Assembly: GCA_030599585.1 (NCBI GenBank)
Contig: JAUVNS010000003.1
Coordinates: 32,001 to 96,000 of the forward strand
Reading direction: 5' to 3'
DNA from: Promethearchaeota archaeon
Lineage (GTDB): Archaea > Asgardarchaeota > Lokiarchaeia > Sigyniarchaeales > SOKP01
DNA length: 64,000 bases
Shown: positions 38,948 to 46,527 of the stretch, one piece after another
How the letters are laid out: each line of letters begins with the position of its first letter
How positions within the stretch are numbered: position 1 is the stretch's first letter
Notes under the pieces: generated by a model
What the model was told of the DNA's origin: nothing
Database searches by the model: none
Seen by the model: only the letters and a program-made list of their open reading frames with translations
Program-made: the position numbers and the translations under genes

Positions 38948-40201
38948 ATGTCAGTTGATATCTCTAAAATTATTAAAGTATTTTCGAAATTTTTAGATCC
39001 AAAATTAGCGAAAGAGGGAAAGTTGAAGACTATTGATGAAATCAAGAAGCTTCCATTGAACTCATTCAAATTTATGTCTAAAGAAGATGTAAAACAACTA
39101 AAAGAAGTACTAAATTTATCTACTATTGAGGATACTTCCAAATTAGATCGAGAGAACCCTTTTGTTAAGTTAAAGAAAATTAAATCTACCAAAGATTCTA
39201 GTAAAGATGCTAAACTACAAAAAGAAATCGAGGGGAAAGCTGCAGCAATACGAATAGAAAATCCCGATCTTGTAAAAGCATTGAACAAAGCAATCATAAT
39301 TAGCTCGATAATAACAAATTTAACCGATGCGGATGAAATCGTTACTGAGAAATCTGCTCAAAAAATTATTGTTATTGGATTAGATAACGCTGGCAAAACT
39401 GCAATTTTGAACAAGTTTGGAGGGCGGTTAGGCATTAGCGATTTGGCAAACTTGAAACCAACTAAAGGTGTCGATCGCCGTCATATCAAGGCAGAAAATT
39501 CTGACTTAGATTTGTTTATCTGGGATTTCGGTGGTCAGGCACAATATAGATCTAAATATTTAAAAAATCCAGAACAATACTTTTTGCAAGTTGATTTATT
39601 AATTTATGTCATTGATATACAAGATTCTGAGAGGTTTCCAGAATCTTTTGAATACTTCGAGCAAATTCTAAAGACACTCACAATTTTAGAAGAAGACCCC
39701 TTTGTATTAATATATATACATAAATTCGACCCAGATTTAAAGCATGACACTGAAACACTTCTTAACATCGAACTTCTGAAAGATAATTTAAACCAGTCAT
39801 TAACTTCTTTTGGATACGATTACGAAGCTTATCTAACTTCAATCTACTCTTTAATTACTAACGAACCCGAGTTTTCTAAATATCTTAAAGAAGTTATGAA
39901 ATCAACCGACTCTTTAACTAACCCCACTCTAAGGAAAGTAGAAGGATTAGGAAAAACTTTAGAAGAAACTATGAATGCTGTTATTCGACTCTCTGAAAGT
40001 CTTTCAAGGCAATTATCTGATATAGATAGTAGATTGAGGGCCATCGAAAGTGGTGCATTTCAAATGGCTCAGAATGGCATCCCCATAGGACTATCACCAC
40101 CTAATCAAGCTTCAGTTCCCGGTAGGCCTGGGGATTCAAGGTTAAAAGTTCTTGACGAATTAAAGTTGTTGTTCGATAAAAAGAAAAAGTTAAACCTATA
40201 G
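38948..40201 (+). CDS. Arf/Rag-like GTPase with an N-terminal HhH-like domain and a C-terminal coiled coil
   Basis: GLDNAGKT, PTKG, WDFGGQ..YR, HKFD, TSIY. Confidence 0.9.
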   Translation: MSVDISKIIKVFSKFLDPKLAKEGKLKTIDEIKKLPLNSFKFMSKEDVKQLKEVLNLSTIEDTSKLDRENPFVKLKKIKSTKDSSKDAKLQKEIEGKAAAIRIENPDLVKALNKAIIISSIITNLTDADEIVTEKSAQKIIVIGLDNAGKTAILNKFGGRLGISDLANLKPTKGVDRRHIKAENSDLDLFIWDFGGQAQYRSKYLKNPEQYFLQVDLLIYVIDIQDSERFPESFEYFEQILKTLTILEEDPFVLIYIHKFDPDLKHDTETLLNIELLKDNLNQSLTSFGYDYEAYLTSIYSLITNEPEFSKYLKEVMKSTDSLTNPTLRKVEGLGKTLEETMNAVIRLSESLSRQLSDIDSRLRAIESGAFQMAQNGIPIGLSPPNQASVPGRPGDSRLKVLDELKLLFDKKKKLNL

Positions 40202-40261
40202 CTTTTTTTAAACAAACTTGTAAATAATGCTTGGTATATATTTTTTATTTAAAATCTAAGC

Positions 40262-40975
40262 CTATTTTGATTTACTGTAAAGTTCCACAATCAATTTGCG
40301 GATGGCTAAGTAAGTGATTATACTTAACAGTCCAATAACTAATATCAAATAAAATACATTTTCAAAAAGTAGGGGATTAATTACTTGGATGTAAATATTT
40401 CCTATATTAAATTGCTCAAAAAAAATCAGTAGACTATGTAAAAGAGGAACTAAAACGAATCTCGCTACTAAAAAACCGAAAATACCTATGAAAACTCCAC
40501 AAATTACATCACTTGGGTAATGAACTCCTAATTGAATTCTAGAAAAAGATACAAATATAACAATAAGTACAATGATAATTACCATCATCGGTGTGTTTAA
40601 CAACGAAGCAAATAGAAGTCCTTGAGACGCCACATTATATGAATGCCATGATGGAAAACTTCTAGAGGTTGGTTCTCTTTCGAGTACTTTAATATTTTTT
40701 AATGCTTCAAAAGGTCTCTCTCTACCTATAAGTTTTTTTATAGGGGCAATTATCAATACGCCGATTAAAAAAACAGCTGAAATGCTTGAAAACAAAAAGG
40801 AATCGTAAAATATGAATAAATAAAAAACCATTAACAACATCCATAAAGTCTCTCTTCCCAGAAACGAAATAATCTTTAATAGACGAGTAAATAACATTCC
40901 ACCAAATCCAATATATTTTAAAATAACCCTTTTATCCCAGGCATCAATGTTCTTTAATATTAAATCTGGTTTCAT
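40262..40975 (-). CDS. PAP2-family membrane phosphatase
   Basis: K....RERP, SFPSWH, SRIQLGVHYPSD. Confidence 0.92.
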   Translation of the reverse strand: MKPDLILKNIDAWDKRVILKYIGFGGMLFTRLLKIISFLGRETLWMLLMVFYLFIFYDSFLFSSISAVFLIGVLIIAPIKKLIGRERPFEALKNIKVLEREPTSRSFPSWHSYNVASQGLLFASLLNTPMMVIIIVLIVIFVSFSRIQLGVHYPSDVICGVFIGIFGFLVARFVLVPLLHSLLIFFEQFNIGNIYIQVINPLLFENVFYLILVIGLLSIITYLAIRKLIVELYSKSK

Positions 40976-40988
40976 GTTTCATATCCCT

Positions 40989-41783
40989 TCAATATGTTAT
41001 ACCTAAAAATTTATAAGCATCTTTGACTTCAGAAATGTTTTCTTGGAAATTTTCAACCGAATGAGAATCTGATCCAACGAAAAATCTAGCTCTTTCTTTT
41101 CTTAACTTCTTAGCAATTTCCCTAGAAGGAAAAGGGCGATCAATGGGAAAACGTAAACCTGATAAGTTATATTCAATCTTAATTTTGTTTTTAATACATA
41201 AACGCCCCAAGTTAAGAACTCGTTCATCTGAAATATCGCAATCCTCTAACGGTTTAATATCATGTTCGTTTATGTATCGATAAATTGTATCGATGTGACA
41301 TATATTCTTGAAAATTTTTGATTCGATCATCATCCTGCTGATCTCAAAGTAATCGTCTATGACTTTTCTCATTTGAACTTTCTCTAACAATTGAAGCAAT
41401 TTAGTTCGTGAAGTAATAGGATATTGGTATACCCATTCATGCAGAGTACCACTAATAAAATCGAGTTCTCTTCCATAGTCATCCATAAATTCTAATAATT
41501 CGATTTCCCTGTCCCGATAATACTCTAACTCGAGACCGCTGAGGATAAACTTATATGTTCCCTTCAAATCGTCAAATTCTTCAAGGTAATCGTCTATCTT
41601 GTCATTATAGAAGGGATTTGATTTGTCTCTTTCGATAGAATAAAGTTCGTAATGCTCGAGAAAACATATGTTAATTTCATTTTCTTCTGCAATTTTGATG
41701 TAATCGTTGAAGTTTGGACCATCTTCTGATATGTCTGAGCTCCAGTTTGTATGTACGTGATAATCAGTATATTTAAATTTCAT
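40989..41783 (-). CDS. PHP-family phosphatase (HisJ/HisK histidinol-phosphatase-like)
   Basis: DYHVHT, EH, GLE, HID, GSDSH. Confidence 0.88.
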   Translation of the reverse strand: MKFKYTDYHVHTNWSSDISEDGPNFNDYIKIAEENEINICFLEHYELYSIERDKSNPFYNDKIDDYLEEFDDLKGTYKFILSGLELEYYRDREIELLEFMDDYGRELDFISGTLHEWVYQYPITSRTKLLQLLEKVQMRKVIDDYFEISRMMIESKIFKNICHIDTIYRYINEHDIKPLEDCDISDERVLNLGRLCIKNKIKIEYNLSGLRFPIDRPFPSREIAKKLRKERARFFVGSDSHSVENFQENISEVKDAYKFLGITY

Positions 41784-41832: not shown

Positions 41833-43731
41833 TCAGTCCATAGAATTCTCCCTGTCGAAAAAAACTTCATAAAACAATTCTTTTTCTCCCGCCTCGGGAG
41901 GATTTATCTTCGTATAACCTCCTTTCCTTATAATTTGCACAGTACTTTTATTTTGAATGTGAATGTTTCCGTAAAATCCTTTTATGCCCTTTTCCTTTGC
42001 TATAATTATAAGATGTTGGTATAAGAATGATCCTAACCCCTTCCCTCGATAGTCCTCCCTGACTAAAAAGCTATATTCTGCCATATTTAGCTTAGGATTT
42101 AAGTAATAAGTCGCGTTACCGACCATTTCCTCTTTTCTTACATCACCGATAAAAGCTCCAATTGAAAAAACATTGTTATAATCAATATTAACTTCGTTTT
42201 GCGTCTTTGAATGGGTGAATTCTTTTCTAACTTCGAAAAATCGCAAATATCGATCTGTTTCATTTAAAGAATAATACAAATCTTTTAATAGCGACTCATC
42301 TGTAGTCTTTACTGGGCGAATTTGAATCTTCTCTCCTCCTCTTAGAGTAGATATGGTCACATACTCTGAAGGGTATCTGCAAATTCGTCCTTCTTCGTCG
42401 CATGGTAAAATCTGATCAGAATAAACATATTTCAACTTTTTAGCTTCATCTAACAGCCATTGACGAAAATCAGGATGAGCGACGCATATTAATTCGAGCA
42501 CTCGCTCTCTAATCGTCTTTCCATGAAGATAAGCTACTCCCCATTCAGTTACGACATAATGTGCATCTCCTCGAGATAACATTACTCCCGCACCTTCATC
42601 TAGATGAGGTAAAATCCGGGATTTTTTACCATCACGAGAGACGGATGGCATAATTATTATGGGTTTCCCTCCTTTAGAAAAAGCAGCACCTCTCATAAAA
42701 TCGATGGTCTCTCCTATGCCATTATAGAATCCATATCCTTCAGTTGCTGCGTTTACTTGTCCCGTAAGATCAATTTGTCGAGCTGAGTTGATTGAAACCA
42801 TTTTCTTATTCATTCCTATATACCTAGGATTACATACATAGTCTGAGGGGTAGAATTCGATGTAGGGATTATTATCTACAAAATCGTACAACTTTTTGCT
42901 TCCCAGAGCGAAACTTGTAATAATTTTTTCAGGATGAAAGTTTTTTTTTCTGCTAGTCAATACCCCTTGTTCGATTAAAGGAATAACATTGTCCGTAATA
43001 TAAAGTGAATGCATTCCTAAGTCTTTTTTATCCACTAAAAATTTCAATGCAGCGTTTGGTAAATCGCCAAATCCCACATGAATAGTTGATTTATTTTCTA
43101 TAATATTTGATAAATTTCTTCCTATTTTTTCGGCAATTTCGTCCGGTTCATCGAAATGAAATTCTAACAAAGGTACGTCGTTAACAACAAAATGATCAAT
43201 TTCTTTCATGTGAATAAAACTATTACCTAACGTTCTTGGCATTTGAGGATTCATCTCAACAATGTTTAAAAAAGCTGATTGTGCTAAAGGTTTTGCTATG
43301 TCCACATTAATCCCAAGAGAACAGAATCCATAAGAATCAGGGGGTGTAGCTTGTATAAGAGCAACATCAATATGTTTTCTACCCGTTAAAAATAGTTTGG
43401 GTATTTCACTTGCGTATATAGGAGTATAATCGGCTTGTCCTTTATTAATTTCCTCGCGAAGAGTTTTTCCAATGAATAGTGCATTATGTCTAAAGAGATC
43501 TTCAATTTTATCTTTGAAATATTTCTCTGGGCCAATAGTTAAGAAATGAAGTATTTCAGTATCTATTAACTTCTCAGATTGCTTTATCAATTCTGAAGTG
43601 AGTAATTGTGGTCTCGAGCATCCAGAACCTATAAAAACTCTATTGCCTGGTATAATTTTTTTTATCGCATCCTCAGCAGTAATCTCCTTATCCTTCCACT
43701 TTTCCCGCCATTCTCCATTTGATGAGTCCAT
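41833..43731 (-). CDS. Fusion of an acetyl-CoA hydrolase/transferase (4-HB CoA-transferase-like) domain and a Pat-type GNAT
   Basis: PPDSYGFCSLG, N..MPRTLG, INSA..IDLTGQ, YVVTEWG, AHPDFR, followed by GNAT motifs IRP...D, YLRFF, IDY, AEYSFLV..YRGKGLG. Confidence 0.92.
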   Translation of the reverse strand: MDSSNGEWREKWKDKEITAEDAIKKIIPGNRVFIGSGCSRPQLLTSELIKQSEKLIDTEILHFLTIGPEKYFKDKIEDLFRHNALFIGKTLREEINKGQADYTPIYASEIPKLFLTGRKHIDVALIQATPPDSYGFCSLGINVDIAKPLAQSAFLNIVEMNPQMPRTLGNSFIHMKEIDHFVVNDVPLLEFHFDEPDEIAEKIGRNLSNIIENKSTIHVGFGDLPNAALKFLVDKKDLGMHSLYITDNVIPLIEQGVLTSRKKNFHPEKIITSFALGSKKLYDFVDNNPYIEFYPSDYVCNPRYIGMNKKMVSINSARQIDLTGQVNAATEGYGFYNGIGETIDFMRGAAFSKGGKPIIIMPSVSRDGKKSRILPHLDEGAGVMLSRGDAHYVVTEWGVAYLHGKTIRERVLELICVAHPDFRQWLLDEAKKLKYVYSDQILPCDEEGRICRYPSEYVTISTLRGGEKIQIRPVKTTDESLLKDLYYSLNETDRYLRFFEVRKEFTHSKTQNEVNIDYNNVFSIGAFIGDVRKEEMVGNATYYLNPKLNMAEYSFLVREDYRGKGLGSFLYQHLIIIAKEKGIKGFYGNIHIQNKSTVQIIRKGGYTKINPPEAGEKELFYEVFFDRENSMD

Positions 43732-43850
43732 ATTCTACACTTTAAGGCTCTAATTTTATTTTGTTTAAAATTTTCCTTTATTATCAAAAATAGTTAAGTC
43801 CTATATCTTTAATATTTTTACTTTAACTTTTTAAGGTAATTCTCTTGGAA

Positions 43851-44156
43851 TTACCTGTTTTTAAAAACTACTGAAAAATAAATAACTCCACTGCCAGAAA
43901 TAACACACCAAATCAATGAAGGGATTAAAAAAACAAGGCGCTGCTCAAAATCTACGGACGGGGAAATTATGTTAAAAATTATTGATAATAATGACGAAAT
44001 AAACATAAACCCCCCAAAAAAGATCATGAATATAATAATAAGTGATTTCGAACTCTTCTTTCTACTCTCAATCATGACACAATTAGCACAAATTCCTATC
44101 TTTTCCTCAAAACCACCCTCGACGAGTTCTTGATCGCAAACTTCGCAATTTAACAT
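43851..44156 (-). CDS. Small membrane protein with a C4 Zn-finger and two TMs
   Basis: CEVC...CANC followed by two hydrophobic helices. GGAG lies upstream of the ATG. Confidence 0.7.
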   Translation of the reverse strand: MLNCEVCDQELVEGGFEEKIGICANCVMIESRKKSSKSLIIIFMIFFGGFMFISSLLSIIFNIISPSVDFEQRLVFLIPSLIWCVISGSGVIYFSVVFKNR

Positions 44157-44544
44157 TATTCTTACTCCATATTATAATTAAATAAAAAGATTATACGATT
44201 ATTTAAAATTCTATTCAAATGAAAACGAATCTTTTCAATAAATTAAAGATTTTCTAATCGATTTATTTTTAATAATTATTAATAAAATTAATCTCTATAA
44301 CTCATAAACAAACTCTAAAAAGAGATTTTGAAAAAAACTTACTTCTCCCATTCCTTAATAAATTAAAGATAAAATGTTTAAATTGAATTCGAAATATTTA
44401 CTCCATGACTTAATACAACCATTTAATTTCTAAAAATTTAAATGTGATGAGAAGGAAAAGAAATCTTTAAAGTTTTTTAAGAATTTAATAAACCAAGAAA
44501 TTTAATTATACAAATTAAGTAGAAATTCAAATTAGTGAAATGTA

Positions 44545-46527
44545 ATGTCAAAAGAAGATAACAAAATGAGAAGTGTTCTAACTGAAAATCGAATTTTTGA
44601 CCCTGTAGAAGTCAGCCCCGAATATGCTAAGACTGGAATGTCAATGGACGAATATAAAAAACTCTACAAGCAATCCATCGAAGATATGGAAGGATTCTGG
44701 GGAGAACAAGCAAAATCGCTTGATTGGTTCAAACCTTACGATAAAGTGTGGGAAAAAACCGATCTCTTTCCGGGAAAATGGTTTGTGGGCGGAAAACTCA
44801 ATGTTTCTTATAATTGTATTGATAGACATGTGAACGCTGGAAATGGAGATCGCATTGCTATCATATGGGAAGCAGACGAGCCCGGTCAAGTAAGAAAATT
44901 TACTTACAACGAGCTTTTAAAAGAAGTAAGTAAAGTCGCTAACGCTATGAGGAGTAAAGGACTTAAGAAGGGTGATAGAGTCACAATATGGTTGCCGATG
45001 ATTCCTGAGTTAGCTATTATTATGCTGGCTTGCACTCGAATTGGTGTCATTCACTCCATCGTCTTCGGTGGTTTCTCAAAAGAAGCTGTCAAAGATAGAA
45101 TCGAAGACTCTGATTCGCGCTTATTATTTACTAGCGATGAAACCTTAAGGGCTGGTAAAACTTATCCTAAAATGGCTGATGTCGTTAAAATAATAGATAA
45201 AGTTCCAACAATTGAACATGTTATTGTCGTTAAACGAACAGGGAACGAGGTCCCTCACACTGATAAAGATATTTGGTACCACGACTTTATAGATGGCGTG
45301 AGTGAAGAATGTGAACCTGAACAAATGGATTCGGAAGATACCTTATTTATACTCTATACAAGCGGAACCACCGGAAAACCTAAAGGCGTTAACCATACAA
45401 CAGCAGGTTATATTCTTCATACATCATTTACTCATAGAGTCGTATTCAACTACAAGGAAGGCGAAATTTGGTATTGTACAGCAGACATAGGTTGGATAAC
45501 GGGTCATAGTTATATCGTATATGGTCCTTTAGCCAATGGAGCAACAACTCTAATGTTTGAAAGCGTACCGACTTATCCCAACGTCGATAGATTTTGGGAT
45601 ATCGTGGAACGCCACAAGGTCAACCAATTTTATACCGCTCCAACCGCCATACGTGCCCTTATGAGACACGGTGATGAGCCCGTTAATAGACACGATTTAA
45701 GCTCTTTAAAAGTTCTCGGGACCGTAGGAGAACCGATAAACCCAGAAGCATGGACTTGGTACCATAGAGTTGTGGGAAAAGAACGATGTCCGATTGTAGA
45801 CACCTACTGGCAAACTGAAACGGGAGGTTTTATTATGACTCCTATAGCTACGGCAACCCCAACAAAACCTGGATCATGTTGCTTGCCTTTCCTTGGTATT
45901 AAACCCATAATTTTCGATTTGGAAGGTGACGAGATCACCGAAGCAAACGAAGGTGGCTATTTTGCAATAGGACAACCATGGCCAGGAATGTTAAGAGATG
46001 TTTGGGGAGATACAGAGAGATTTAAATCTACATATCTCGAAAAATACCCCGGATATTATTACACTGGTGATGGAGCACGACGAGATGACGATGGTTATTA
46101 TTGGATACTCGGACGATTGGACGACGTTATAAAAGTATCCGGACACCGCATAGGAACAATGGAAGTGGAATCTGCTTTAGTGAGTCATCCAAAAGTAGCT
46201 GAAGCTGCTGTTGCACCTTTTCCACATAAAATAAAAGGGCAAGCTATTTGGGCGTTCGTGACATTAATGGGTGGAGTCGAAAAATCAGCCAAATTATCGA
46301 AAGAGCTTCGAATGCATGTTAGACAAGAGATTGGGCCTGTATTTCAGCCAGATGTTATTCAATTTGCTGACGCCTTACCAAAGACGAGAAGCGGTAAGAT
46401 TATGCGCAGGATTCTTAAAGCCATAGCTTCAGGAACAGAAATCGGTAATGTTACGACCTTAGCAGATCCTTCAGTAGTCGATGTTTTGCTTGAAGAGCGT
46501 AAGAAAATGGATGTCGAAGTAGGTTAA
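44545..46527 (+). CDS. acs: Acetyl-CoA synthetase (AMP-forming)
   Basis: YTSGTTGKPKG, CTADIGWITGHSY, VGEPINPEAW, DTYWQTETGG, GRLDDVIKVSGHR, LPKTRSGKIMRR. Confidence 0.97.
   Translation: MSKEDNKMRSVLTENRIFDPVEVSPEYAKTGMSMDEYKKLYKQSIEDMEGFWGEQAKSLDWFKPYDKVWEKTDLFPGKWFVGGKLNVSYNCIDRHVNAGNGDRIAIIWEADEPGQVRKFTYNELLKEVSKVANAMRSKGLKKGDRVTIWLPMIPELAIIMLACTRIGVIHSIVFGGFSKEAVKDRIEDSDSRLLFTSDETLRAGKTYPKMADVVKIIDKVPTIEHVIVVKRTGNEVPHTDKDIWYHDFIDGVSEECEPEQMDSEDTLFILYTSGTTGKPKGVNHTTAGYILHTSFTHRVVFNYKEGEIWYCTADIGWITGHSYIVYGPLANGATTLMFESVPTYPNVDRFWDIVERHKVNQFYTAPTAIRALMRHGDEPVNRHDLSSLKVLGTVGEPINPEAWTWYHRVVGKERCPIVDTYWQTETGGFIMTPIATATPTKPGSCCLPFLGIKPIIFDLEGDEITEANEGGYFAIGQPWPGMLRDVWGDTERFKSTYLEKYPGYYYTGDGARRDDDGYYWILGRLDDVIKVSGHRIGTMEVESALVSHPKVAEAAVAPFPHKIKGQAIWAFVTLMGGVEKSAKLSKELRMHVRQEIGPVFQPDVIQFADALPKTRSGKIMRRILKAIASGTEIGNVTTLADPSVVDVLLEERKKMDVEVG

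What the first reader, a model, noticed from the sequence alone, without database searches (positions are those of the whole stretch)
41833..46527. Catalytically dead CoA-transferase fused to a Pat-type GNAT beside acs: a candidate acyl-CoA-sensing acetylation switch
Seen: the CoA-transferase domain reads DLGMHSLYITD, with Leu243 (codon 43005-43003) at the position where family I 4-hydroxybutyrate CoA-transferases have the catalytic Glu (LGIH(S/T)EM). The GGQ motif (SGxGGQxDF) is NGIGETIDF, and QLGIG is HVGFG. The GNAT looks intact, including the Glu of AE(F/Y). The divergently transcribed acs, one small gene away, keeps the PKTRSGK target lysine (K618) and the downstream TLADP leucine. Known: bacterial Pat/PatZ enzymes acetylate this Acs lysine and use an inactive acyl-CoA-synthetase-like domain as an allosteric sensor; CoA-transferase-GNAT fusions as such occur in other anaerobes. 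Inference: a different dead enzyme has been recruited as the sensor, giving an Asgard system for post-translational control of acetate activation.
Basis: partly seen in the sequence, partly recalled or inferred. Interest (0 to 1): 0.8.

Follow-up and report, generated by a model that had tools for sequence, protein, structure and literature searches.

The report
Dead CoA-transferase–Pat acetyltransferase beside acs
This Asgard archaeon has, next to its only acetyl-CoA synthetase gene, a gene that joins a Pat-type protein-acetylating domain to a CoA-transferase domain whose whole catalytic site has been replaced but is still strongly conserved; it is probably an undescribed kind of off-switch for acid-activating enzymes.

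Summary
Gene 41833-43731 (-) encodes a 632-aa fusion of a 4-hydroxybutyrate-CoA-transferase-type domain and a Pat-type GNAT. Leu243 aligns with the catalytic Glu, GGQ reads GET, and acs lies divergent, one small gene away.

New here:
- Seven of 67 family-conserved positions are replaced, and the rest of the fold is kept. By inferred equivalence to AarC they include the nucleophile Glu, both oxyanion-hole residues and the Gln of TLQxGIG.
- The replacements (His218, His243 (Leu here), Cys300, Glu/Asp341, Thr342) are nearly invariant in 121 orthologues. The domain has dN/dS of about 0.04-0.09, so it is remodelled, not decaying.
- The dead copy is a paralogue confined to one Asgard family. The same genome keeps a copy with an intact site, next to a sirtuin gene.
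- Fusions with intact sites are also paired with acs in another Asgard family, so the pairing does not depend on the loss of catalysis.
- Two complete relatives keep the dead fusion but have no Acs orthologue, so Acs is probably not the only target.

Best reading: a Pat-like lysine acetyltransferase with a non-catalytic, CoA-transferase-derived regulatory domain. No published classification I read lists this design. This scan had already followed up the same orthologue group in another Asgard genome (e1-3085810).

The parts
41833..43731 (-). Fusion gene, 632 aa: CoA-transferase-like domain plus Pat-type GNAT (P0001)
   Evidence: ORF and translation; Pfam and NCBIfam; AlphaFold2 model with mean pLDDT 90.1 and pTM 0.86
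42430..43710 (-). CoA-transferase-like domain (residues about 8-434) with a remodelled active site
   Evidence: PDB 9vag/3eh7 at E about 1e-113. The model superposes on 3gk7 and 2oas with target TM 0.92-0.94 and rmsd 1.8 A. 60 of 67 family-conserved columns are kept. dN/dS is 0.04-0.09.
43003..43005 (-). Codon of Leu243, at the position of the catalytic Glu (His in 95% of orthologues)
43078..43080 (-). Codon of His218, replacing the Gln of TLQxGIG (inferred equivalent of AarC Gln267)
42832..42834 (-). Codon of Cys300, replacing the conserved Asn (inferred equivalent of AarC Asn347, internal oxyanion hole)
42706..42711 (-). Codons of Glu341-Thr342, replacing the second Gly and the Gln of GGQ (Gly inferred equivalent of AarC Gly388, external oxyanion hole)
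41902..42348 (-). Pat-type GNAT domain (residues about 462-610), with Glu552 (AEY) and RGKGLG at 562-567
44545..46527 (+). acs, AMP-forming acetyl-CoA synthetase, 660 aa; the only Acs orthologue in the genome
46396..46398 (+). Codon of Acs Lys618 (A10 lysine; aligns with Lys609 of S. enterica Acs)
   Evidence: placed in the GNAT active site in the complex model
43851..44156 (-). Small ORF of 101 aa (CxxC...CxxC, then hydrophobic stretches) between the fusion gene and acs; not part of the conserved unit
   Evidence: No Pfam or NCBIfam hit. Found only in the closest relative L003 (62% identity). Many relatives have only about 270 bp between the two genes.
40989..41783 (-). PHP-domain (HisJ-like) gene 49 bp downstream of the fusion gene on the same strand; this position is conserved in the family
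   Evidence: no functional link shown

Best explanation
The gene encodes a Pat-like protein lysine acetyl(acyl)transferase. Its C-terminal GNAT is the catalyst. Its N-terminal domain is a class I CoA-transferase fold of the AbfT/Cat2 type that no longer transfers CoA, but it is kept under strong selection as a regulatory, ligand-binding or oligomerising module. This is analogous to the inactive NDP-forming acyl-CoA-synthetase-like domain of bacterial Pat/PatZ.

Its most likely main target is the neighbouring Acs. Acetylation of Lys618 would block the adenylation step, and one of the genome's three sirtuins or four HDAC-type enzymes would reverse it. Other AMP-forming acyl-CoA synthetases are probably also targets.

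Shown: the architecture, the loss of the catalytic set, purifying selection, origin by duplication, and the conserved pairing with acs.
Inferred: acetylation of Acs, and what the N-domain binds or senses.
For: Architecture. The Pfam domains and PDB matches are as in the observation check. Glu552 aligns with the Glu at position 809 of PatZ chain 9it0, and RGKGLG is present.

Loss of catalysis. I compared 67 columns that are at least 85% conserved in 63 active-type sequences. The dead clade keeps 60 of them. The seven changed are D213N, G214K, Q218H, E243H (Leu here), N300C, G341E/D and Q342T. By the alignment offsets, four of these correspond to AarC Gln267, Glu294 (nucleophile), Asn347 (internal oxyanion hole) and Gly388 (external oxyanion hole). 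PMC4876117 gives these roles and calls the external oxyanion hole strictly conserved in the superfamily.

Selection. dN/dS of the N-domain is 0.077-0.089 at dS of about 0.33, and 0.044 in a second pair. The GNAT gives the same range. The fold is modelled with confidence.

Origin. The dead clade (support 100) is nested in a clade (support 97) with the intact-site paralogues of the same family. The own genome has paralogue P0124 with HSE, GGQ and QMGIG intact.

Link to acs.
- acs lies divergent within 3 kb in 23 of 26 informative loci of this family.
- The intact-site paralogues of this family are unlinked to acs in 4 of 4 loci.
- In family f7 about 25 of 30 genomes pair an intact-site fusion divergently with acs, with a likely transporter gene in between.
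- In the four sampled genomes of genus g3 I found neither gene.

Complex model, GNAT with the Acs C-terminal domain. Score 0.83, best of 3 controls 0.00. The mark was reached by 58 of 80 solved complexes and 2 of 110 mismatched pairs. The runs agree in at least 96% of contacts and the partner's pLDDT is at least 88. Lys618 touches residues 497-499, 554 and 589, and Glu552 touches residues 614-616. A like complex is solved (4u5y: PatA GNAT with the Acs C-terminal domain). The pass may therefore come from memory; it shows likeness, not binding.

Erasers. The genome has 3 Sir2 and 4 HDAC-type genes, and one Sir2 gene lies 24 bp upstream of the intact-site paralogue.

Wider family. Among fusion representatives only 17 of 76 keep all four catalytic elements, against 33 of 59 stand-alone enzymes. 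In the fusion context catalysis seems to be often dispensable.
Against: G083 and G174 (both 100% complete) keep the dead fusion but have only a 30%-identical Acs paralogue. In G104 and G171 acs is in pieces. Acs therefore cannot be the only reason the gene is kept.

Within this family the whole block GTPase-PAP2-PHP-fusion-acs is syntenic, so part of the linkage is inherited order.

The predicted interface residues are no more alike among acs-linked GNATs than the rest of the domain.

The replaced active-site residues are themselves nearly invariant. That fits a new function in the pocket better than a passive loss.

Lys618 is conserved in all enzymes of this superfamily whatever their regulation.

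The residue equivalences to AarC rest on alignment offsets and column conservation, not on a printed residue-by-residue alignment.
Confidence: 0.55

Rival explanations
1. The N-domain is not dead but has a new function. The His218 / His243 / Cys300 / Glu-or-Asp341 / Thr342 set sits where the glutamyl nucleophile and both oxyanion holes used to be. It would form a new catalytic centre (for example a Cys-His-acid triad that takes an acyl group from acyl-CoA or hydrolyses it) or a metal site, working together with the GNAT.
For: The replacement residues are nearly invariant in 121 orthologues: His218 in all, Cys300 in all, Glu/Asp341 in all, Thr342 in 120, His243 in 95%. In AarC the equivalent positions lie within a few angstroms of each other (PMC4876117). 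The domain has dN/dS below 0.09. Gln218 to His recurs in 13 of 76 fusion representatives and in none of 59 stand-alone enzymes, and always in sequences that lack the full catalytic set.
Against: His243 is Leu in this window and in its 97%-identical relative, and Tyr in four others. His218 is Gly in L028, and Cys300 is Ser in the sister sequence P0125. No single replacement except the acid at 341 holds across the wider clade. No coordinates were available to measure the geometry. I know of no precedent.
Confidence: 0.15
2. The protein is a lysine acyltransferase with broad or different targets (the 12 other AMP-forming acyl-CoA synthetase paralogues, or unrelated proteins). Its position next to acs is mostly inherited gene order.
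For: The fusion persists in G083 and G174 without an Acs orthologue. The genome has 12 paralogues of the same superfamily, and a sirtuin gene lies next to two of them on contig C40. The whole five-gene block is syntenic in the family.
Against: The same divergent pairing with acs occurs in a separate fusion clade in family f7, with a different gene arrangement (a likely transporter gene in between). In the four sampled genomes of genus g3 I found neither gene. The complex model passes with Lys618 in the active site, although this may come from memory of 4u5y.
Confidence: 0.2
3. The N-domain is only a scaffold. It keeps the dimer or tetramer architecture of CoA-transferases so that several GNAT domains are presented together, and it senses no ligand.
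For: Class I CoA-transferases of this type are dimers or tetramers (RipA, PMC3180442). Pat oligomerises (PMC3195501). Active-site loss is frequent in the fusion family.
Against: A pure scaffold would not be expected to hold a new, invariant set of residues exactly in the former active site. The apolar residues matching two of RipA's three acyl-pocket phenylalanines (Phe86, Phe114) are kept.
Confidence: 0.1

Closest known systems
Type I/II Pat protein lysine acetyltransferases (S. enterica Pat, E. coli PatZ/YfiQ, S. lividans PatA) with the CobB sirtuin
   Same: The GNAT domain is homologous (9it0 at 1.5e-15, 4nxy at 3.4e-15) and the Glu at 9it0 position 809 is conserved. A large N-terminal domain is derived from an acyl-CoA-handling enzyme that has lost its activity. 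The gene is associated with acs, and sirtuins are present in the genome.
   Different: The accessory domain is a class I CoA-transferase fold, not an NDP-forming acyl-CoA-synthetase fold. At 632 aa the protein is about 250 aa shorter. The five-type classification summarised in PMC11254643 has no such type. The lineage is archaeal (Asgard).
4-hydroxybutyrate CoA-transferases AbfT/Cat2 and RipA (PDB 3gk7, 2oas, 3eh7, 3qli, 9vag)
   Same: The fold is the same (target TM 0.92-0.94), identity is 32-39%, and 60 of 67 family-conserved positions are kept.
   Different: The nucleophile Glu, both oxyanion-hole residues and the Gln of TLQxGIG are replaced, and a GNAT is fused to the C-terminus.
CoA-transferase::GNAT fusions with intact active sites: paralogue P0124 in the same genome, and the acs-linked copies of Asgard family f7
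   Same: Same two-domain architecture and length, 41-52% identity, and the f7 copies are also divergent from acs.
   Different: They keep HSE/HTE, Asn300 and GGQ. P0124 is not next to acs but next to a Sir2 gene. None has been characterised either.

Membership tests
Class I CoA-transferase, acetyl-CoA hydrolase/transferase family (PF02550 + PF13336; AbfT/Cat2 type) | Two-domain CoA-transferase fold | tested here: met
   Pfam 1.7e-28 and 7.6e-59; PDB E 1e-114; model against 3gk7 and 2oas with target TM 0.92-0.94
Class I CoA-transferase, acetyl-CoA hydrolase/transferase family (PF02550 + PF13336; AbfT/Cat2 type) | Catalytic glutamate nucleophile (H-S/T-E; RipA Glu249, AarC Glu294) | tested here: not met
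   Leu243 aligns with the Glu in 9vag, 3eh7 and 3d3u. Orthologues have His, Tyr or Leu.
Class I CoA-transferase, acetyl-CoA hydrolase/transferase family (PF02550 + PF13336; AbfT/Cat2 type) | External oxyanion-hole glycine in GGQ (AarC Gly388, 'strictly conserved' per PMC4876117) | tested here: not met
   GGQ reads GET; the position is Glu or Asp in all 121 orthologues
Class I CoA-transferase, acetyl-CoA hydrolase/transferase family (PF02550 + PF13336; AbfT/Cat2 type) | Internal oxyanion-hole carboxamide (AarC Asn347) | tested here: not met
   The column is Asn in 95% of active-type sequences and Cys300 in all 121 orthologues. The equivalence to Asn347 rests on alignment offset.
Pat-type GNAT protein lysine acetyltransferase | GNAT domain closest to Pat/PatZ/PatA, with the Glu at 9it0 position 809 and the R/Q-x-x-G-x-G/A acetyl-CoA loop | tested here: met
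   9it0 at 1.5e-15, 4nxy at 3.4e-15; Glu552 lies over that Glu; RGKGLG at 562-567. NCBIfam Pat model NF058543 scores 49 bits, below its cut-off of 460.
Pat-type GNAT protein lysine acetyltransferase | NDP-forming acyl-CoA-synthetase-like regulatory domain (types I and II) | tested here: not met
   Pfam and NCBIfam find only CoA-transferase and GNAT domains; classification from PMC11254643
Pat-type GNAT protein lysine acetyltransferase | Acetylates the A10 lysine of Acs or other AMP-forming acyl-CoA synthetases | not testable with these tools
   Only a model: score 0.83 against a best control of 0.00, with Lys618 in the active site; a like complex (4u5y) is solved
AMP-forming acetyl-CoA synthetase (the neighbouring gene) | Equivalog-level match and the A10 lysine | tested here: met
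   NF001208 at 993.6 bits (cut-off 657) and TIGR02188 at 965.9 bits (cut-off 725); Lys618 aligns with S. enterica Lys609

The most novel reading that the evidence does not exclude
The 'dead' domain is a re-tooled enzyme or metal site. A new His/His/Cys/acid/Thr constellation has been built in the pocket that once held the glutamyl-CoA chemistry. It might, for example, take up or edit acyl groups from acyl-CoA through Cys300 and so decide which acyl group the fused GNAT puts on its targets. The intact-site paralogue in the same genome would be the ancestral form, which gives a natural before-and-after pair.
Probability: 0.15. Interest if true: 0.75.

Novelty: new variant of a known kind. Interest (0 to 1): 0.55.

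Why it matters
Reversible acetylation of Acs by Pat and CobB is the textbook case of post-translational control of central metabolism in bacteria. Very little is known for archaea and, as far as my searches reached, nothing for Asgard archaea.

This family would add a further accessory-domain type to the lysine acetyltransferase classification. It also shows the same evolutionary logic a second time: an acyl-CoA-handling enzyme is fused to a GNAT and then loses its catalysis.

One genome carries both the intact-site and the remodelled copy. Expressing these two proteins would directly test what the accessory domain contributes.

It also bears on how Loki-type archaea, which live on short-chain acids and syntrophy, gate acetate activation.

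Tried and rejected

2. I looked for a substrate-specificity signature. The 25 predicted interface residues of the GNAT are no more similar between acs-linked fusions (dead clade, f7, f16) than the rest of the domain: 0.28-0.36 against 0.29-0.34. This is inconclusive.

3. Sir2 as a conserved partner. The Sir2 gene next to the intact-site paralogue in this genome is not found within 9 kb of the orthologous copies in G195, G147 or G104, so I do not count it as a conserved module.

4. Segmental duplication of PHP plus fusion. Both paralogue loci have a PHP-domain gene nearby, but the two PHP proteins show no significant similarity (E 0.025 over 39 aa). Rejected.

5. Literature. Four full-text searches for CoA-transferase/GNAT fusions or Asgard Acs acetylation found nothing relevant. 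This covers only the held library.

6. Pyrrolysine as the explanation for the TAG codons in acs of genus g6. No PylS or PylD hit passes its cut-off.

7. I could not print a residue-level alignment to AarC, and I could not obtain model coordinates. The distances within the remodelled pocket were therefore not measured.

8. The intergenic alignment shows an AT-rich conserved block in one genus, but nothing I could call an operator.

Full report
**What is there**

The region holds three genes. Gene 41833-43731 (-) encodes 632 aa. A small 101-aa ORF lies at 43851-44156 (-). acs lies at 44545-46527 (+) and encodes 660 aa.

Pfam finds both halves of the acetyl-CoA hydrolase/transferase family in the 632-aa protein, at residues 24-188 and 277-430, and a GNAT domain at 512-596. 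The first 450 residues match solved 4-hydroxybutyrate CoA-transferases at E 1e-94 to 1e-114. The last 190 residues match E. coli PatZ (9it0) and the GNAT domain of S. lividans PatA (4nxy, 4u5y) at about 1e-15. The acs product passes the NCBIfam acetate--CoA ligase models well above their cut-offs and is the only Acs orthologue in the genome. Twelve more distant paralogues of the same superfamily exist.

Small GTPases of eukaryotic type lie nearby, and source names on close homologues read Promethearchaeota/Lokiarchaeota. Both fit a Loki-type Asgard archaeon.

**Check of the observation**

In the printed alignments to 9vag, 3eh7 and 3d3u, Leu243 lies over the Glu of H-T-E. GET lies over GGQ, and HVGFG over Q(M/L)GIG. 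The codon of Leu243 is CTT at 43005-43003. Glu552 of AEY lies over the Glu at position 809 of PatZ chain 9it0, and the RGKGLG loop is present. Acs Lys618 aligns with Lys609 of S. enterica Acs.

One detail is wrong. The TLADP leucine corresponds to S. enterica Leu632. Leu641 corresponds to Leu648 in VLLEE, which is present.

**How dead is the domain?**

I took 63 sequences with Glu and GGQ intact, both stand-alone enzymes and fusions, and listed the 67 columns that are at least 85% conserved among them. The consensus of 121 orthologues of the window's protein agrees at 60 of these columns. The seven differences are D213N, G214K, Q218H, E243H (Leu in the window), N300C, G341E/D and Q342T.

The HMMER offsets to AarC chains are query 295-429 to chain 342-469, and query 219 to chain 268. 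They put Gln218, Glu243, Asn300 and Gly341 on AarC Gln267, Glu294, Asn347 and Gly388. [quoted passage not shown] It places Gln267 about 4 A from Glu294 and Gly388.

The entire catalytic apparatus has therefore been exchanged, while the rest of the fold's conserved positions are kept. The AlphaFold2 model is confident (mean pLDDT 90.1, pTM 0.86). Its N-domain superposes on AbfT (3gk7) and on the CoA complex 2oas with target TM 0.92-0.94 and rmsd 1.8 A.

The equivalence to AarC residues is an inference from offsets and column conservation. I could not print that alignment.

**Remodelled, not decayed**

The replacement residues are nearly fixed. The patterns NKHHCET and NKHHCDT account for 110 of 121 sequences. 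Cys300, the acid at 341 and His218 are in all 121, and His243 is in 95%.

dN/dS of the N-domain is as follows:

| Pair | dN/dS, N-domain |
|---|---|
| window vs closest relatives (dS about 0.33) | 0.077-0.089 |
| L006 vs L014 | 0.044 |

The GNAT domain gives the same range. The window itself is unusual within its clade. Position 243 is Leu here and in a 97%-identical relative, and Tyr in four others. This argues that the His at that position is not indispensable.

**Origin**

The own genome has a second fusion, P0124 on contig C35, 49% identical, with HSE, QMGIG and GGQ intact.

Across 201 Asgard genomes, orthologues of the window's protein (at least 69% identity) occur only in the window's own family f1. 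Copies at 40-52% identity are spread over families f1, f2, f7, f16, f18 and f22.

In a maximum-likelihood tree the dead clade (support 100) sits inside a clade (support 97) with the intact-site f1 paralogues and f2 sequences. The f7 fusions form a separate clade. The dead copy therefore arose by duplication within this lineage and then lost its catalytic set.

**Linkage to acs**

- In f1, acs lies divergent within 3 kb of the dead copy in 23 of 26 loci where the contig allows a judgement.
- Four intact-site f1 paralogue loci have no acs within 9 kb.
- In family f7 the fusion has Glu, Asn and GGQ intact. By coordinates, about 25 of 30 genomes pair it divergently with acs at 1-3 kb. The gene in between looks, by my reading of its sequence, like an MFS transporter or a SatP/YaaH-type acetate channel.
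- One f16 locus has the pair convergent.
- In the four sampled genomes of genus g3 I found neither gene.

The association of the fusion with acs is therefore not tied to the loss of catalysis, and the dead domain is not what makes the system. These genomes are kin, so the counts overstate independence. The two families, with different gene arrangements, are the real replication.

**Against a dedicated Acs switch**

G083 and G174, both 100% complete, keep the dead fusion (79% identity) but have only a 30%-identical Acs paralogue. In G104 and G171 acs is in pieces. The fusion is thus kept without Acs, and other targets must exist.

Lys618 is the catalytic lysine of every enzyme of this superfamily (established knowledge). 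Its presence is not evidence of regulation.

**Complex model**

The GNAT domain (alignment A1) was modelled with the Acs C-terminal domain (A2).

- Score 0.83, best of 3 controls 0.00.
- The mark was reached by 58 of 80 solved complexes and 2 of 110 mismatched pairs.
- The runs agree in at least 96% of contacts, and the partner's pLDDT is at least 88.
- Lys618 touches residues 497-499, 554 and 589. Glu552 touches residues 614-616.

PDB 4u5y holds a PatA GNAT together with an Acs C-terminal domain. The pass may therefore come from memory. It shows that this pair looks like the known enzyme-substrate pair, not that it binds.

**The wider family**

Among representatives at 50% identity, only 17 of 76 fusions keep all four catalytic elements, against 33 of 59 stand-alone enzymes. 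Gln218 to His occurs in 13 fusions and in no stand-alone enzyme, always without the full set. The list is the best 150 hits to a dead query, so it may be biased. It nevertheless suggests that catalysis becomes dispensable once the domain is fused to the GNAT. The same happened to the synthetase-like domain of Pat, which binds acetyl-CoA at a second site and drives oligomerisation (PMC3195501).

**Comparison with what is known**

The five-type classification of bacterial lysine acetyltransferases summarised in PMC11254643 lists two kinds of accessory domain: NDP-forming-synthetase-like domains, and small effector-binding domains. It lists no CoA-transferase domain. My literature searches found no paper on such fusions.

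Within this scan the fusion family has been noted in at least 165 genomes. The same orthologue group in another Loki-type genome has already been followed up, with the same main reading (e1-3085810).

New here are the seven-position remodelling with conserved replacements, the selection figures, the live/dead paralogue pair and its phylogeny, the acs-linked intact-site copies in f7, and the genomes that keep the fusion without Acs.

**Verdict**

The gene is best filed as a new variant of the Pat-type lysine acetyltransferases. It works like Pat but fails the type I/II membership test on the accessory domain, and it fails the CoA-transferase test on all catalytic residues.

Noticed in passing
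L023:11004-13037 (G144:C2) and L024:5234-7237 (G138:C52): acs of genus g6 relatives carries exact 30-nt insertions, each with an in-frame TAG, inside conserved motifs: after GEPI and after DTYWQ. One insertion is shared by both genomes. No PylS or PylD hit passes its cut-off, yet acs has dN/dS 0.048 between the two genomes. The insertions are therefore probably removed or bypassed; they are candidate mini-introns in a protein-coding gene. RNAfold puts hairpins at both, but I did not establish a canonical bulge-helix-bulge.
   Followed up: partly
L033:8219-8989 (G000:C35), 24 bp upstream of the intact-site paralogue at L033:9013-10932: A Sir2-family deacetylase gene lies directly upstream of, and on the same strand as, the intact-site CoA-transferase::GNAT paralogue. 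This looks like a writer/eraser pair. It is not conserved in three orthologous loci.
   Followed up: partly
G000:C40:179656-183931: Another Sir2 gene lies next to two AMP-forming acyl-CoA synthetase paralogues.
   Followed up: no
L037-L040, L044 (family f7): Between the fusion gene and acs lies a gene on the acs strand. By my reading of the sequences it looks like an MFS-type transporter of about 430 aa, or in L038 a 193-aa SatP/YaaH-type channel with NPAPLGL. Together with acs this would form an acetate uptake and activation unit divergent from the fusion gene.
   Followed up: partly
window 43851-44156 (-): A 101-aa ORF with two CxxC pairs followed by hydrophobic stretches, with no family hit. 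It is present only in the closest relative (62% identity) and looks like a recent insertion between the fusion gene and acs.
   Followed up: partly
L015:3000-8990 (G171:C82): About 13 kb separates the fusion gene from a broken acs. The 9 kb fetched next to the fusion gene holds several small ORFs, one of which looks ParB-like to my eye. This may be a mobile element.
   Followed up: no
window 38948-41783: The Gtr1/RagA-Arf-like GTPase, a PAP2 phosphatase gene and a PHP (HisJ-like) gene form a block with the fusion gene and acs that is syntenic across the family.
   Followed up: no
L005-L017, fusion-acs intergenic region: A conserved AT-rich block, TTTTTGAAATTATAAATAAAATGTTTAAATTT, lies in the roughly 270-bp divergent intergenic region of one genus. 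It may be a shared promoter or operator.
   Followed up: no
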